The notes beneath the pieces are model-generated. The model ran no database searches and was not told the origin of the DNA. It saw only the letters and a list, made by a program, of their open reading frames with translations. Below are positions 590 to 30,120 of a stretch of DNA of 64,000 nucleotides, piece by piece. Every line of letters starts with the position of its first letter. Position 1 is the first letter of the stretch. Source of the stretch: the human T2T-CHM13v2.0 reference genome, Homo sapiens; the NCBI RefSeq assembly GCF_009914755.1, contig NC_060947.1. One strand, written 5' to 3'. The translations under genes were made by a program, and so were the position numbers.

Positions 590-1727
<1,138 letters not shown>

Positions 1728-1730
<3 letters not shown>

Positions 1731-1901
1731 CCCACTCTGCTTCGGCTCACCCTCCTTGGGCTGCACCCACTATCTAATCAGTCCCAATGAGATGAGCCGG
1801 GTACCTCAGTTGGAAATGCAGAAATCACTTGCTTTCTGCGTTGATCTCACTGGGAGCTGCAGACAGGAGCTGTTCCTATTCGGCCATCTTGCCGGCCACC
1901 C
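1728..1901 (-). mobile_element. L1PA (L1PA7/8-like) 5'UTR, first ~170 bp only
   Basis: Antisense of GGGTGGCCGGCAAGATGGCCGAATAGGAACAGCTCC...CCAACTGAGGTACC, the L1PA 5' start with its YY1 motif. Confidence 0.9.
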
Positions 1902-1938
1902 CATTGGTTCTCTTTCTCTGGAGAACCTTGACTAACAT
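1902..1938 (+). mobile_element. MLT2-like (ERVL) LTR 3' terminus remnant
   Basis: attggttctctttctctggagaaccttgactaacata resembles the MLT2 end (...ctctggagaaccctgactaataca). Confidence 0.55.
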
Positions 1939-3635
1939 ATACTTTTTACCTGGTATTCACACCATCGTCTCTATGATTCAACATAGAATGGTGATTCTGT
2001 CTCCTTGAACATAGTTGATGGAACCATGGACTATGTACCTGACCTGTGGCTTGGCTTAAAAATTTTTTGTTCGTCTATCAGGTCTATTCTCTTGGGAATC
2101 CAAACTGAGAAAATAAAGCAATTGGCATCAGGAACTGTGACTGAAAGAATGTATATAGAGACGTCTCATGATTTACAATCAGCAGCCAGGAGGCCTCGTG
2201 GCAGGCTAGATTTTAAGGAAGCAGATACTCTGAGAGCTACAGAGAAACCATAAGCAAGAGATCATGTAGCCTGTGTGAGAGGAGATAACAGCCAATCCCT
2301 AGATTTTTCTTGGCTTCTAATGTTTTTCCTGTACCAGTGCCTGTGTATCCTCACAACAAACTCCACTTCGCAAGGCTTCTTGTGTGATTTCCTGTTTCTC
2401 ACAACCTGTGGAGCCCAGTTAGAACTTGGCACAGTCTTCAGAGGCCTCCATGACTGCTCATATTTTTAGGAAATATGCTTTCATCAGTTCCCTAACACAG
2501 CTTATATTTCTCTTACAAGGCCTCCAACATTAATAATAAAAAAGAGAAATAAAATGATCGAAAAGAAAGGAAATGCCTCAAATGAAACCAACTCATGGGA
2601 AAACACTAGATATAACTGGATTAATCCATTCTTTAAAAATAAGCAGTTGCTCTCCGTGGTTTTTCTTTGGCCAAATTTAAAGGCCAGGAGAAGTTTGAAC
2701 ATACCTCTGGACTATGTAAATATCTCTCTTTCTTTACATTAGGATACCCACAGTGGAAAGGCTCCGTATGGAAACAGTGCTAAATGCATCTCAGGTGGGC
2801 TTTTCCAAGAAGTGTTACAACAGTATTTCCTCAAAGGAGGCATATAGAAGCACATATGAAGGGAGAGAACTGTCTCCCAATAGGATAGCAGAGACAGAAG
2901 GCAAAAGAGGCACTAAGTCAGACAACCGTTCTGTATTTGTTTTAATGAGGAGAAGAGGAAAATGTGCCCAGAGCAGCTATATAAGACTGACGGTGAGCAA
3001 TTAAACTGTCTATAACGTTTTTGGTATTGCTGTTATAAGAAGCTTCTAAAATGGATGAGACACCAGAATCAGTCAGCCTGCTTACATGCTGAGTCAAAAA
3101 AATAGAAATCCCTTGGGGAGATTTGAGCACTTGCTTGGTTCTGGCGGAAGTGCTGCTGATTGAAAAGTGGCAGGTGGCATGTTCTCCTTGGGATAAATGC
3201 CCTTTTGAGTCAATTGGCAGGCACCTCAGGGGCCCATGTTTGAATGAAGCTGAAGGGACACTTGGGCCATTTTTCCTCCTGTCTTATTACCAGAAATACA
3301 AATTTAGGTAAATGACATGGAGTAGTATTTCTCAGTTCTTTTTTCCAAATGATTTCCCTTTTTACCAAGCATAAATATCTCATGCCCTTTTCTAATGTTA
3401 TTGGAAATTTCAAAATAAATTAAAATCTGATGTAAAACAAATCATTGTAATGGGACTAAAGATTACTTTCACACTAAGCATTTATTCTTTTAACGTCACT
3501 AAACAGGATATGAAAGTTATCAAGTTTTAACCTAAATTTTAAAGTCAAAGTTATGCAGTTACTCAAGTTTCTTGAATGATAAACATATTCTGTAGCTCTC
3601 ATGTGTATTCCTCTCTCTCCCCCATATATATACAA

Positions 3636-3660
3636 ACACACACACACACACACACACATA
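3636..3660. repeat. (CA)n microsatellite
   Basis: Direct read, about 11-12 units. Confidence 0.95.
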
Positions 3661-3801
3661 TATGTTTTCTTAATGTTGAGCTAGATGCTGTGACCAGTTT
3701 ATACCTATAAAAGAGCACAAAAATATTTGTTGTTAATATATTTGTGAGACAAGACTTTCACACCTAACATCTAAGTTGGCTATCATTGCAGAGTTATGAT
3801 A

Positions 3802-4163
3802 CTATGTTGAATTATAGAGACGATAGTGTGAATACCAGGTAAAATGTATGTGTTAGTCAAGTTTCTCCAGAGAAAGAGAACCAGTGGGGTGGCTGGCAAG
3901 ATGGCCGAATAGGAACAGCTCCGGTCCGCAGCTCCCAGTGAGATCAACACAGAAGGCAGATGATTTCTGCATTTCCAACTGAGGTACCCAGCTCTCTATA
4001 TACATTCTTTCAGTCTCAGTTCCTGATGCCAATTACTTTATTTTCTCAGTTTGGATTCCCAAGGGAATAGACCTGATAGACCAACAAAAAAATTTAAGCC
4101 AAGCCACAGGTCAGGTACATAGTCCATGGTTCCACCAACTATGTTCCAGGAGATGGAATCACC
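3802..4163 (-). repeat. Inverted, circularly permuted duplicate of 1794-2161
   Basis: 3802-3994 = reverse complement of 1794-1986; 3993-4163 = reverse complement of 1990-2161; roughly 90% identity by eye. Confidence 0.92.
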
Positions 4164-4229
4164 TGATCTGTGTAAGACTATCCCTCCTGAACTGGTAATG
4201 AGTAGATGTTTTCTCTTAAAAGGAATTTC

Positions 4230-4269
4230 AAACAGATAAGAACAGATACTACACTTGATCTTAGCCAAA
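4230..4269 (-). pseudogene. U2 snRNA fragment (about nt 16-55) fused to the 5' end of an L1
   Basis: Reverse complement TTTGGCTAAGATCAAGTGTAGTATCTGTTCTTATCtGTTT matches U2 with one mismatch and includes the GTAGTA branch-point recognition sequence. Confidence 0.93.
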
Positions 4270-5714
4270 TGCTGGTGGCATCATGCTACCTGACTTCAAA
4301 CTATATTACAAGGCTACAGGAACAAAACAGCATGGTACTGGTACCAAAACAGATATATAGACAAATGGAACAGAACAGAGGCCTCAGAAGTAACACCACA
4401 CATCTGCTACCATCTCACCTTTGACAAACCTGACAAAAACAAGAAATGGGGAAAGGATTCCCTATTTAATAAATGGTGTTGGGGAAACTGGCTAGCAATA
4501 TGCAGAAAACTGAAATTGGACCCCTTCCTTATACCTTATACAAAATTTAACTCAAGATGGATTAAAGACTTACATGTTAGACCTAAAACCATAAAAACCC
4601 TAGAAGAAAACCTAGGCAATACCATTCAGGACATAGGCATGGGCAAACACTTCATGACTAAAACACCAAAAGCAATGGCAACAAAAGCCAAAATAGACAA
4701 ATGGGATCTAATTAAACTAAAGAGCTTCTGCACAGCAAAAGAAACTATCATCAGAGTGAACAGTCAACCTACAGAATGGGAGAAAAATTTTGCAATCTAT
4801 CCATCTGACAAAGGGATAATATCCAGAATCTACAACGAACTTAAACAAATTTAGAAGAAAAACAAATAACCCCATCAAAAAGTGGACAAGGGATAGGAAC
4901 AGACACTTCTAAAAAGAAGACATTTATGTGGCCAACAAACATATGAAAAAAAGCTCATCATCACTGGTCATTAGAGAAATGCAAATCAAAACCACAATGA
5001 GACACCATCTCACATCAGTTAGAATGGCGATCATTAAAAAGTCAGGAAACAACAGATGCTGGAGAGGATGTGGAGGAATAGTACCACTTTTACAGTGTTG
5101 GTGGGAGTGTAAATTAGTTCAACCATTGTGGAACACAGTGTGGCGATTCCTAAAGGATCTAGAACCAGAAATACTATTTGACCCAGCAATCTCATTACTG
5201 GGTATATACCCAAAGGATTATAAATCATTCTACTGTGAAGACACATGCACACGTATGTTTATTGCAGCACTGTTCACAATAGCAAAGACTTGGAACCCAC
5301 CCGAATGCCCATCAATGATAGACTGGATAAAGAAAATGTGGCACATATACACCATGGAATACTATGCAGCCATAAAAAAGGATGAGTTTGTGTCATTTAC
5401 AGGGACATGGATGAAGCTGGAAACCATCACTCCCAGCAAACTAACACAGGAACAGAAAAACGAACACCGTATGTTCTCACTCATAAGTGGGAATTGAACA
5501 ACGAGAACACATGGACACAGGGAGGGGAACATCACCTGCCAGGGACTGTCGGGAGGTGAGGGGATGGGGAGGGAGAGCATTAGGAGAAATACCTAATGTA
5601 GATGACGGGTTGATGGGTGCAGAAAACCACCATGTCACGTGTATACCTACGTAACAAACCTGCATGTTCTGCACATGTATCCCAGAACTTAAAGTATAAT
5701 TTAAAAAAAAAAAA
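4270..5714 (+). mobile_element. 5'-truncated L1PA (L1PA7-like): ORF2 C-terminal part, 3'UTR, poly(A)
   Basis: ORF2 fragments in the track (4516-4854, 4928-5497 ending ...HRMFSLISGN); L1PA 3'UTR; TSD aaaaggaa(t/c)ttcaa at 4218-4231 and 5728-5741. Confidence 0.95.
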
Positions 5715-5749
5715 TCTAGAAGGAAAAAAAAGGAACTTCAAGACACACT

Positions 5750-8557
5750 TCAGAGAAAAGTGGCAGAGTAGGCAGCTCTCATTTTTTTTGTGCCCACCGC
5801 CACCCCAACAAATTAAACACAAGCAGAAACTGTCAAAACCAACTGTTTCAGAACTGGAAAACAGTCAAAGGTTTACAACAATCAAGCAAACACTGAATTA
5901 AGAATAAAAGCAACTTCAAAACAGTAGGAAAGCTTTGGGTCATTTTTATTTGCCTTTATTCCAAGTCTTCCCTGCCACAACAGGAGCCTTAGCCCACATT
6001 CCCAGTGTAAGACTCTGATCACTGGTGCCAAAGGAACAGAGCAGACCTTATTTGCAGATTATCATTTATGTCTATTCTAGCATGTCTGTGGCAGGCTATT
6101 GATAAAAGGAACTTATCTCTGTTTCACCTAACTCAGACTCACTAAGAAAAAGCAAGAGGCACCACTCAAAAACACTGCAAGCCCAACTAAAAACCCATCA
6201 ACATCTGGGACAAAAGATTAATGTTGCAATATATAATAAAATGTGTAAGGCCTGGGAGCTAAAGTTGGGAAAAATTTCTTTGGAAAATTGGGAAATTCAA
6301 CAGCACCTATGTATAGCAAGGAATTTATGAAGCAACATAAATGCCAAGGGTAAGATGCATACTTAGAAAACACAGAGAGAACCCTAAGTTTTCATTTTGG
6401 GCTGAATATTGGAATCAGTGCAAGCAAGCCTAAATACGGAAGTAGAACTCCGAAACACAGGTAATGTGGAAAGGCTGAGAGATATGTTTTCCATTTGTGT
6501 GTATTGTTGTTGTCTTTTTGTTTTTGTTTGTTTGCTTTTAGCTCCAGGCACTCAAGAAATATCTGTCAAATTTAGTATAGTACTAGGATTACTAGCAAGA
6601 ACAATCAGACAAGAAGAAATGAAAACCATCCAAATCAAATCAAAAGAAGTAACATTTTCCCTGGTTGCAGATGACATGATCCTATATGTAGAAAATACTA
6701 AAGAATCTGCAAAAATAATAATACATGAATTCAGCAAAGTAGAAAGATACAAAATCAACATACAAAACTCAGTGGCATTTCTTTACACCAATAATAATCT
6801 CTATGAAAAAAAAAAAACCAAGAAAACAATCCCATATACAATACCTAAAAAAATAACTGTTTAGGAATAAATTTAACCAAGTAAGTAGAAGATCCATACA
6901 CTAAAAACTATAAAAGACTGATTAAAAAAATTGAAGAAGACACAAATAAATGAAAAGATAAGCTATATTCATGGATTGGAAGAAATAATATTGTTAAAGT
7001 GTCCATACTACCCAAGTGATTCAAGTGATCTACAATTTCAATGCAATCCCTAACAATTATCCAATGGCATTTTCGACAAAAATACAAAAAAAAAAAAACA
7101 AAAAAAAAAAACCTTTTCTAAAGTGTGTATGGAACCACAAAAGACCCCTCCTAACCAAAATAATATTAAGACAAAAAAGCAAATGAAGGCATCATACTTC
7201 CTGATTTCATCTTATATTACAAAGCTATAATAATCAAAACAGTGTGGTATTGGCATAAACACAGACAAAGACCAAGGGGACAGAATAGGAACCCCAGAAA
7301 TAAACTCAAGCCTATATGGTCAACTAATTTTCCACAAGGGCACCAAGAGTACACAATGGGAAAAGGACAGTCTCTTTAATAAATGGTAATGGGAAAAGCG
7401 GATATCCACAAGCAAAAAAAAAAAAAGACAAGAGAAGAAACTGGAACTTTCTTTAACCCCATACATCAACTTGAAATGTATTAAAAGACCTGAACATAAG
7501 ACCCAAAACTGTAAAACACCAAACAAAAAATTGAGTGGAAATTCTTCATGACATTAGCCTGGGTAATGATTTTTTAGATATCACGCCAAAAGTTCAGGTG
7601 AGAAAATCAAAAATGAACCAGTTAAACTATATCAAACTAAAAAGCTTTTCCACAGCAAAGGAGACAATCAACAGAATGAAAAAGTAACCTACAAAATAGG
7701 AGAACATATTTGCTAGCCATATACATATAAACATATAAGAAATTCAGACAACTCAATAATAAAAAAATTAAAAATCAGACAACAGACCTAAATAGACCTA
7801 AATTTTTACAAAGCAGATATACAAATGGACAATGGGTATATGAAAAGGTGCTCAACATCACTAATCATCAAAGAAATACAACACCATGAGATATTAACTC
7901 ATACCGATTTCGGTGTTAGATGGCTACTATCAAAAAGACAAGAGATGTGTTGGTGAGTATGTGAAGAAAAGGGAACTCTTCTACACTGATGATAATAATG
8001 TAAATTGTTACAGCCATTATGAAAAACAGTATGAAGCTTCCTCAACAAAATTTTCAAAAAGAGCTACAGTACGATACAGCAATTCCTCTTCTGGGTATGT
8101 ACCTAAAGGAAATGAAATCAGCACATTGCAGAGCTATCTGCAACTCAATGTTCACGGAAGCATTATTAACACTAGCCAATATATAAAAGCAAACTAGGTA
8201 CCCATCAACAGATGATTAGATAAATAAATCATGGCATATATACACAATGAATATTATTCAGCCTTAGAAAAGAAAGAGATACTGCCATTTGGGATGACAT
8301 GGATGAACCTGAAGGACATTATGCTGGGTGAAATAAGTGAGACTTAGAAAGACAAATAATGTATGATCTCACACTTATTTGACTTTTTAAGAGAGTCAAA
8401 TAAATACAAACGAAGAGTAGAAAGGTGGATAGCAGAGGTGAGGAGGGAAGGAAATGGGAAGAAGTAGGTCAAAGTAGGTCAAAATTCCACCTAACCACTT
8501 TGCAGTTAGGTGGAACAAATAATGTACAGGATAAGGACTATAGTTAATAATATTGTA
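5750..8557 (+). mobile_element. Old L1M: probable 5' region (5750-6570) joined by deletion to ORF2 3' half and partial 3'UTR (L1MA8-like)
   Basis: ORF 6409-6864 carries the decayed RT motif VADDMILYVEN; L1 ORF2/3'UTR sequence runs to ~8557. The 5' assignment is weaker. Confidence 0.75.
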
Positions 8558-27923: not shown

Positions 27924-30120
27924 TGATATGGTTTAAATCTGTGTCCTCACCCCAATCTCATGTTGAAATGTAATCCCCAATGCTGAAGATGGGGCCTGGT
28001 TGGAGGTGAGTGGATCATGGGGGCAGTTTCTCATGATTTAACACCATCCCCCTTGGTGCTATCATAGCAATAATGAATTCTCACGAGATCTGGTTGTTTA
28101 AAAGTATGTGGCACCTTCCCCCTCTCTTGCTCCTACTCTGGCCATGTAAGATGTGCCTGCTTCCCGTTTGCCTCCTGCCATGATTATAAGTTTCATGAGG
28201 CCTCCTCAGAAGCAGAAGCTGCTATGCTTCCTGTACAACCTGCAGAATCATGAGCCAATTAAACCTCTTTTCTTTACAAATAACCCAGTCTCAGGTATTT
28301 CTTTATAGCAATGCAAGAATGGACTAATATAGAAAATTGGTACCAAGGAGTGGGGCATCGATATAAAGATACCTGAAAATGTGAAAGCAGCTTTGGAACT
28401 GGATAATGGGGAGAAATTGGAAGAGTTTGGAGGCACAGAAGAAGATAGGAAGATGAGGGAAAATTTGGAACTTCCTAGAAACTTATTGAATAGTTGTGGT
28501 CAAAATGCTAATAACGATATGGACAGAGATGGCCAGGCTGATGAGGTCTCAGACGAAGATGAAGAACTTATTGGGAACTGGAGTAAAGATCACTTTTGTT
28601 ATTCTTTAGCAAAGAACTTGGAGGCATTGTGCCCCAGCTCTAGGGATCTGTGGAACTTTGAACTTGAGAGTGATGATTTAGGGTATCTGGCAGAAGAAAT
28701 TTTTAAGCAGCAAAGTGTTCAGGAAGTAGTCTGTCTGCTTCTAACAGCCTATGCTCATATGCATGAGCAAAGAAATGACCTGAAACTGGAACTTATATTT
28801 AAAAGGGAAGGAGAGCATAAAAGTTTGGAAAATGTGCAGCCTGGCCATGTGGTAGAAAAGAAAAACCCATTTTCAGGGGAGGAATTCAAGCTGGCTGCTG
28901 AAATTTGCATAACTAAAAGGAAGGCAAAGTGCTGATAGCCAAGACAATGGGGAAAAGGCCTTGAAGGCATTTCAGAGATCTTTAAGGCGGCCCTCCCATC
29001 ACAGACCCAGAAGCCTAAGAGGGAAGAATGGTTTCCTGGAACAGGCCCAGGGCCCCACTGTGCCAGGCAGCCTCCAGACACTGCTCCCTACATCCCAGCT
29101 GCTCCACCTCCACCCATGGCTCAAAGGGGCCCAGCTACAGCTCAGGGCACTGCTCCAGAGGGTGTAAGCCATAAGCCTTGGAGGCTTCCAAGTAGTGTTA
29201 AGCCTGCAGGTGCATAGAGCACAAGAGTTGAGGGTTGGCAGCCTCTGCCTAGATTTCAGAGGATGTATGGAAAAGCCTGGATGTTGAGGCAGAGGCCTGC
29301 TGCAGGGGCACAGCCCTCATGAAGAACATCTACCAGGGTAGTGCAGACGGGAAATGGGAGGTTGGAGACCCCACACAGAGTCCCCACTGGGGCATTCCCT
29401 AGCGGGGCTGTGAGAAGAGGGCCATTGTCCTCCAGACCCAAGAAAGGTATATCAACCAGCAGCTTGTACCCTGCACCTGGAAAGGCTACAGGCACTCAAC
29501 GTCAGCCTGTGTGAGCAGCTGCAGAGGCTGAAGCCTGAAAAACCACAGAGGTGGAGCTGCCCAAGACCTTGGGAGCCCACCCCTCACACCAGTGTGCCCT
29601 GGATGCGAGACATGGAGTCAAAGAATTTTATTTTGGAGCTTTAAGATTTAATGACTGCCCTGCTGGGTTTTAGACTTGCATGGGGACTGGAGCCCTTTTC
29701 TTTTGGCCAATTTCTCCCTTTTGGAATGGAAGTATTTACCCAATGCCTATAATCCCGTTGTATCTTGGAAGTAACTAACTTGCTTTTGATTTTACAGCCT
29801 CATAGGTGGAAGGGACTTGCCTTGTCTCAGATGAGATTTTGGACTTTGGACTTTTGAGTTAATGATGAAATAAGGTAAGACTTTGGGGGGACTGCTGGGA
29901 AGGCATGATTGTATTCTGCTCCTAATTCAGTCATGTAAGATGTGCCTGTTTCCCCTTTACCTTCCGCCATGATTGTAAGTTTCCTGAGGCCTCCCCAGAA
30001 GCAGAAGCCACTATGCCTCCCGTATAGCCTGCAGAACTGTGAGCCCGTTAAACTTCCTTTCCTTATAAATTACCCAGTCTCAGGTATTTCTTTATAGCAA
30101 TGCAAGAATGGACTAATATA
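27924..30120 (+). mobile_element. MSTA/THE1-family MaLR provirus: 5' LTR 27924-28331, internal region, 5'-deleted 3' LTR
   Basis: tgatatggttt...ggactaatata LTR; internal start gaaaattggtacc; the 3' half of the LTR is repeated at ~29915-30120; TSD cacac/cacag. Confidence 0.92.

What the first reader, a model, noticed from the sequence alone, without database searches (positions are those of the whole stretch)
1794..4163. A ~365-bp local segment re-inserted inverted AND circularly permuted, like an integrated DNA microcircle
Seen: the donor reads A(1794-1986)-B(1990-2161). The copy at 3802-4163 reads rc(A)-rc(B), which equals rc(B-A), not the rc(B)-rc(A) of a simple inverted duplication. The donor's two outer ends are joined in the copy (gaggtacccagc-tc-tctatatac, 2-nt microhomology), and it is opened at an internal point with ~3 nt lost. 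A 4-bp tgat lies on both flanks; there is no poly(A). The segment crosses an L1PA 5'UTR/MLT2/unique junction, so it is not a dispersed repeat, and the donor is the copy whose L1 5'UTR continues. Inference: a circle of about dinucleosomal size was linearised and captured 1.6 kb away in the germline. Two-step template switching (MMBIR/FoSTeS) is the alternative. About 10% divergence implies an old primate event.
Basis: partly seen in the sequence, partly recalled or inferred. Interest (0 to 1): 0.78.

Follow-up and report, generated by a model that had tools for sequence, protein, structure and literature searches.

The report
Old 2-kb inversion with duplicated ends
Two adjacent short stretches of the human X chromosome reappear 1.6 kb away, flipped and in swapped order; this is likely the scar of one old inversion that copied its own ends, a known kind of mutation, rather than a captured DNA circle.

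Summary
The arrangement is real: A (1794-1989) and B (1990-2161) recur as rc(A) (3799-3994) then rc(B) (3993-4163), 92% and 94% identical. Divergence is 6.5%, not 10%. The same order results from one inversion of 1990-3994 that duplicates both breakpoints. [quoted passage not shown] It needs two new junctions; the circle needs three. The models differ in which junction is old. B belongs to an old dispersed repeat. Against 61 other copies, the sequence 5' of the right-hand B (4164-4232) matches their upstream part at p<=0.05 in 12 of 18 settings. The A tail does so in 1 of 18. The test is weak, and five earlier unranked tests were inconclusive. The flanking tgat sits inside an 11-nt imperfect repeat that both models can use. 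No primate outgroup was available, so the decisive test is not done. Verdict: inversion with duplicated ends 0.75, integrated microcircle 0.15. It is a new, intergenic example of a known class.

The parts
1794..1989 (+). Segment A, left copy: first ~100 nt of an L1 5' end on the minus strand (1794-1893), a short LTR end (MLT2 label recalled, not tested), and a 53-nt tail
   Evidence: match to a dispersed L1-type 5' end in L053
1990..2161 (+). Segment B, left copy; middle of an old dispersed LTR-type repeat that runs on to about 2425
   Evidence: similarity outside the search motifs to L085, L061, L078, L090 (z 8.9-5.1) and L114 (E 0.0012)
1989..1990 (.). A|B junction: likely new (inversion model); old under the circle model
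2162..3798 (.). Spacer M, 1,637 nt, single copy in the window apart from a CA repeat; likely inverted relative to the ancestor
   Evidence: orientation is inferred, not shown
3799..3994 (-). rc(A), 15 substitutions from A (4 of CpG type), no gaps
3993..3994 (.). rc(A)|rc(B) junction with a 2-nt overlap; new under every model
3993..4163 (-). rc(B), 9 substitutions and one 1-nt gap from B
4164..4232 (-). Right flank Q; read on the minus strand it likely continues the old repeat 5' of B
   Evidence: modest, parameter-dependent signal
3797..3807 (-). Imperfect repeat, copy 1 (ACATAGTATCA on the minus strand; includes tgat 3797-3800 on plus)
   Evidence: sequence
4164..4173 (-). Imperfect repeat, copy 2 (ACACAGATCA on the minus strand; includes tgat 4164-4167 on plus)
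   Evidence: sequence

Best explanation
The locus reads A-B-spacer-rc(A)-rc(B), and it likely arose when one event inverted the 2-kb stretch 1990-3994 and duplicated about 196 and 172 bases at its two ends. The inferred ancestor had A, then the spacer in the other orientation, then rc(B). Inferred mechanism: a replication fork that had copied A jumped about 1.8 kb ahead onto the opposite strand, at an 11-nt imperfect match. It copied backwards through B, the spacer and A (2,005 nt). It then jumped again at a 2-nt match and resumed forwards at the start of rc(B). Two staggered breaks filled in and rejoined give the same product and cannot be told apart here. Shown: the arrangement, the junction sequences, the divergence, and that this history yields the observed order with two new junctions. 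Inferred: the spacer's inversion, the switch mechanism, and an age of very roughly 25-40 million years (recalled primate rates). No function is proposed; the annotation supplied shows no gene within 76 kb upstream or 22 kb downstream.
For: (1) Label-level check: one 3-1-4-2 event gives the observed order with 2 new junctions, and all ancestral junctions survive. The circle needs 3 new junctions. [quoted passage not shown] It also appears as staggered-break inversions in Drosophila, six with both ends duplicated, median duplication 321 bp (PMC1885836, passages), and as dupINVdup (PMC5338099, passages). (3) Nearness and inverted orientation are required by this model and incidental for a free circle (inference). 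(4) With 61 dispersed copies ranked only on sequence 3' of the junction, 4164-4232 matches the upstream part of the ten closest (10 of 1,500 random stretches and 3 of 500 shuffles reach it). The A tail does not (862 of 1,500; 290 of 500). Over 18 settings, Q reached p<=0.05 in 12, A tail in 1, and the right-hand A tail in 0; Q beat the A tail in 16. (5) Over the first 25 nt past the junction, the A tail scores below all 61 real copies, while Q has 10 copies below it. (6) L056 and L061 align about 60 nt across 4163/4164 but stop at or inside B on the left (picked after viewing, 2 of 61). (7) The 11-nt, 9-of-11 match at the junction fits the 7-14 bp, 70-90% microhomeology reported at template-switch junctions (PMC6902434, passages).
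Against: The repeat-continuity test is weak and came after five inconclusive tests on unranked copies (Q z 0-1.7, A tail z -0.9 to 1.4). It fails under the strict scoring set in 5 of 6 settings. With all 61 copies, Q is not significant against genomic stretches (137 of 1,500), and the A tail is borderline against shuffles at N=20-61 (14-21 of 500). L055 and L094 give short alignments into the A tail. In one search the whole left stretch scored higher than the right (11.2 vs 6.5 bits), which is the difference in B itself, and it aligned 22 nt into the A tail. The piece beyond the L1 insertion (5741-5795) showed no match to the closest copies and only a weak one to all 61 (3, 20 and 107 of 800). 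35 further fetched stretches added no usable upstream sequence. The A|B junction lacks the last two bases (CA) of the shared motif, so a 2-nt loss must be assumed. At 2 kb the copied fragment is much longer than the catalogued short-range events (tens to hundreds of nt).
Confidence: 0.75

Rival explanations
1. A ~367-bp DNA circle made from A-B was opened at the A|B point and inserted, inverted, 1.6 kb away, possibly by crossover at the imperfect repeat.
For: It gives the observed order. ATCA/tgat on both flanks reads as a 4-nt target duplication, or as a crossover with a 2-nt duplication. Circle-mediated duplications are argued for large human duplications (PMC7450558, passages: 22-3,918 kb, 0.09 Mb or more apart; PMC7188851, parts 1-2 of 4: 3 candidates among >1 kb duplications). 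L055 and L094 align a little into the A tail.
Against: It needs three new junctions and chance landing within 1.6 kb in inverted orientation. The A tail does not match the upstream part of the closest repeat copies, while the supposed target flank Q does. The flank motif is longer than tgat and is shared with A's own end, so it is junction homology that either model can use: a 2-nt gain here, a 2-nt loss in the inversion model.
Confidence: 0.15
2. A templated insertion at a break between 3798 and 4164, with three template switches (to the end of A, from the start of A to the end of B, then back) and no free circle.
For: It explains the short distance. Local inverted duplications are common in humans (277 events, median 284 bp; PMC12350158, Inversions section).
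Against: The first landing point and the last leaving point must be adjacent to the base by coincidence. The same junction evidence applies as for the circle.
Confidence: 0.05
3. Two separate events, for example a duplication followed later by an inversion or recombination between the short inverted arms.
For: A and B differ slightly in divergence (15 of 196, 9 of 171).
Against: The difference is within sampling noise and shrinks without CpG-type changes (11 of 196, 9 of 171). One event suffices.
Confidence: 0.05

Closest known systems
Four-point template switch, type 3-1-4-2 (Loytynoja and Goldman 2017, PMC5453318; Walker et al. 2021, PMC7954356)
   Same: The product is two inverted repeats with an inverted spacer, exactly the order seen; point 2 lies ahead of point 1, so the switch would be inter-strand.
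   Different: Catalogued events span tens to hundreds of bases in great-ape comparisons; this one copies 2,005 nt and is older. The spacer's inversion is not shown here.
Staggered-break inversion with inverted duplications (Ranz et al. 2007, PMC1885836)
   Same: Both breakpoint regions are duplicated in inverted orientation; the arm sizes (196, 172 bp) lie within the reported range (46 bp to 1.9 kb, median 321 bp).
   Different: Described for large Drosophila inversions; this is a 1.6-kb spacer in a primate.
dupINVdup / DUP-NML-INV/DUP complex variants (PMC5338099; PMC6902434)
   Same: Paired duplications joined by an inversion; microhomology or microhomeology at the junctions.
   Different: Those are present-day, mostly much larger variants found in patients; this one is an old event in the reference genome.
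Duplications through circular DNA intermediates (Chicote et al. 2020, PMC7450558; Takahashi and Innan 2020, PMC7188851)
   Same: A-B to B-A order swap, with 1-2 bp microhomology at the closing junction.
   Different: Their cases are larger than 1 kb; in PMC7450558 they are 22 kb or more and at least 90 kb apart, with an empty site shown in primates. Here the copy is inverted and adjacent, which is the configuration in which a single inversion mimics the swap.

Membership tests
3-1-4-2 template switch / dupINVdup / staggered-break inversion | Two pairs of inverted repeats in the order A B ... rc(A) rc(B) around a spacer | tested here: met
3-1-4-2 template switch / dupINVdup / staggered-break inversion | Spacer inverted relative to the ancestral state | not testable with these tools
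   No other mammalian genome is held (no relatives); base skew was uninformative
3-1-4-2 template switch / dupINVdup / staggered-break inversion | rc(B)|Q is an old junction and A|B a new one | tested here: inconclusive
   Leans towards met: Q p<=0.05 in 12 of 18 settings, A tail in 1 of 18; real copies reach p<=0.05 in only 30 of 61; earlier tests inconclusive
3-1-4-2 template switch / dupINVdup / staggered-break inversion | A|rc(spacer) is an old junction | tested here: inconclusive
   No dispersed repeat crossing 3798/3799 was found in 314 kb of held sequence; the one hit near it (L053) is the L1 5' end with a low-complexity extension
3-1-4-2 template switch / dupINVdup / staggered-break inversion | Both duplications of one age; short homology at both new junctions | tested here: met
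   15 of 196 and 9 of 171 substitutions; 2-nt overlap and 9-of-11 match
Circular-intermediate duplication | A-B to B-A order with the donor's outer ends joined | tested here: met
   not specific, since the inversion model gives the same join
Circular-intermediate duplication | Donor A|B continuous in the ancestor | tested here: inconclusive
   Leans towards not met
Circular-intermediate duplication | Empty acceptor site in an outgroup | not testable with these tools
   No primate or other mammalian genomes held
L1-mediated retro-copy | Poly(A) tail, long target-site duplication, endonuclease site | tested here: not met
   None at 3799 or 4163; the neighbouring L1 insertion at 4233-5740 has all three

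The most novel reading that the evidence does not exclude
A ~367-bp microcircle cut from A-B integrated 1.6 kb from its source by crossover at an 11-nt imperfect repeat and was fixed in the primate germline. That would be a base-resolved fossil of microDNA re-integration, far smaller than the circle-derived duplications in the two papers read.
Probability: 0.15. Interest if true: 0.6.

Novelty: new member of a known kind. Interest (0 to 1): 0.3.

Why it matters
As an inversion with duplicated ends it is a clean, base-resolved example of a rare known class (1-3% of short template switches), at a size between the catalogued short events and clinical variants. It lies in intergenic DNA with no evident function. 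The useful lesson concerns method: an inverted, near-by 'circularly permuted' copy is not evidence of a DNA circle, because one inversion yields the same order, and only the ancestral junctions decide. If outgroups showed an empty site instead, it would be direct evidence that microDNA-sized circles re-enter the germline genome.

Tried and rejected
Colinear inverted duplication: rejected. Dispersed-repeat artefact: rejected; DNA searches of the genome find only this locus, and the match crosses repeat boundaries. Retro-copy: no poly(A) or long target duplication. Junction tests on unranked copies led nowhere: summed local alignment with 20 and 43 copies, a profile of 61 copies (Q 246 of 3,000, A tail 1,283 of 3,000), and anchored pair-HMM extension. 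nhmmer with window stretches found no relatives elsewhere in the window or in the loci beyond the motifs. Patterns taken from this copy found no informative relatives. Of 24 + 11 short stretches (11 of 16 new places fetched), 2 clearly passed the membership test and 1 sat at the threshold; none added usable upstream sequence. Two loci were dropped as duplicates (L035 = L055, L037 = L057), giving 61 copies; the 15 loci and those were not used in the ranked test. Base skew of the spacer was near zero and the window's skew is dominated by repeats. Literature: ten full-text searches; none of the listings showed this locus. Only one search was aimed at it. Supplements of inversion and SV catalogues (PMC12350158, PMC6748972, PMC7450558, PMC7188851) were not read and may bear on whether it is in print; RepeatMasker and self-chain tracks were not available.

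Full report
Observation. The structure is as described. A (1794-1989) recurs as its reverse complement at 3799-3994 (181/196 identical). B (1990-2161) recurs at 3993-4163 (162/172, one gap), so the right side reads rc(A) then rc(B). DNA searches of the whole assembly with these stretches return only this locus. No other such permuted pair occurs among the 16 near-by pairs in 86 held sequences. With recalled primate rates this points to very roughly 25-40 million years (inference). The start of A cuts an L1 5' end that continues on the left, so the event is younger than that L1 and the left copy of A is in its original place.

Two histories give the same sequence. Write the locus as P A B M rc(A) rc(B) Q, where P and Q are the flanks and M is the spacer. 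The other starts from P A rc(M) rc(B) Q and needs one event that copies B, M and A backwards and then resumes at the start of rc(B). A label-level check shows that both give the observed order, the circle with three new junctions and the inversion with two. The second history is a named class. [quoted passage not shown] Walker et al. list it at 3% (PMC7954356, S1 Table row; main-text passages). Ranz et al. derive the same product from staggered breaks (PMC1885836, passages); a study of the human X and Y applies that model to human sex chromosomes (PMC2817401, passages). Clinical genomics calls it dupINVdup or DUP-NML-INV/DUP (PMC5338099; PMC6902434; passages). In this model the adjacency of A and B, the short distance and the inverted orientation all follow necessarily.

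What separates them. The circle model makes A|B (1989/1990) old. The inversion model makes rc(B)|Q (4163/4164) and A|rc(M) (3798/3799) old. No other mammal is held, so I looked for an old repeat crossing one junction. B and the start of M belong to an old dispersed repeat. The ERVL-type LTR label is recalled; the family itself is shown by similarity outside the search motifs to L085, L061, L078 and L090 (z 8.9, 5.9, 5.8, 5.1) and to L114 (E 0.0012). I collected 61 other copies by motifs homologous to the inside of B (two duplicates dropped). I then asked whether their upstream part resembles Q or the A tail.

Result of that test. Five tests on unranked copies were inconclusive. One search did show the A tail scoring below all 61 real copies over the first 25 nt, with Q inside their range (10 below it) and right better than left for 45 of 61 copies. 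After ranking the copies only on sequence 3' of the junction, Q matched the ten closest (10 of 1,500 random stretches, 3 of 500 shuffles). The A tail did not (862 of 1,500; 290 of 500). Across 18 combinations of length, scoring and ranking, Q reached p<=0.05 in 12, the A tail in 1 and the right-hand A tail in 0. The signal vanished in 5 of 6 strict-scoring settings. Real copies left out in turn reach p<=0.01 in 14 of 61, p<=0.05 in 30 and p>0.3 in 19. So the test is weak, but Q behaves like a member and the A tail does not. Single alignments agree for L056 and L061 and disagree slightly for L055 and L094. With all 61 copies, Q is not significant against genomic stretches (137 of 1,500) and the A tail is borderline against shuffles (21 of 500). 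The piece beyond the L1 insertion gave mixed results. The ranking step was added after the failures, so I discount it to roughly ten-to-one evidence.

Junction sequences. On the minus strand the right flanks read ACATAGTATCA|TAAC (A into spacer) and ACACAG-ATCA|GGTG (Q into B); the left junction reads ACATAGAAT|GGTG. The tgat is thus the end of a 9-of-11 match between A's end and the sequence before B. The circle model can use this match with a 2-nt gain and the inversion model with a 2-nt loss, so it does not decide; at most it leans slightly to an insertion. Matches of this length and quality are reported at template-switch junctions (7-14 bp, 70-90%; PMC6902434). The other junction has a 2-nt overlap under either model.

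Mechanism. Most likely (0.75) an inter-strand double template switch during replication, or equivalently two staggered breaks, inverted about 2 kb and duplicated both ends. The arrangement, junctions and divergence are shown; the spacer's inversion and the switch mechanism are inferred. The microcircle stays at 0.15. Circle-derived duplications are argued in print for larger cases (PMC7450558, passages; PMC7188851, first half of the text), so even that reading would extend a known idea to a small size. A three-switch insertion and two-step histories get 0.05 each.

Novelty. None of ten literature listings showed this locus (only targeted it). Catalogue supplements were not read. It is best filed as a new member of a known kind, intergenic and without evident function. 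Recurrent human inversions in one study involve inverted repeats of 654 bp or more (PMC6748972, passages), so these 170-200 bp arms are probably inert (inference). One look at New World monkey and lemur orthologs would settle the question. Interest 0.3.

Noticed in passing
window 4233-5740: A ~40-nt antisense piece of U2 snRNA is fused to the 5' end of a truncated L1 inside one ~14-nt target duplication (4219-4232 / 5728-5741, one mismatch). A matching entry is catalogued: U2:16-55 antisense plus a 1,442-nt L1PA7 at chrX:23,484,675-23,486,157 in the supplement of PMC13174262 (row seen; identity inferred from size, structure and position). That paper links antisense chimeras to twin priming.
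   Followed up: yes
window 1714-1730: The 164-nt L1 5' end (1730-1893, minus strand) is joined directly to the 3' part of a much older L1. A dispersed L1 5' end aligns about 16 nt past the join, which suggests a deletion at an imperfect microhomology between two L1s of different age.
   Followed up: partly
window 5741-5795: Read on the minus strand, this resembles the 5'-most part of the same old repeat family, which would place the U2/L1 insertion inside that repeat. The signal is weak and mixed (3, 20 and 107 of 800 with all 61 copies; none with the closest copies).
   Followed up: partly
window 28128-28331 and 29917-30120: Direct 204-nt pair, 86% identical, near the annotated enhancers; probably two copies of a common short repeat.
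   Followed up: no
L022 224-435; L046 1084-1299: Short local direct duplications (70 nt at 89% and 108 nt at 90%) in two fetched loci.
   Followed up: no
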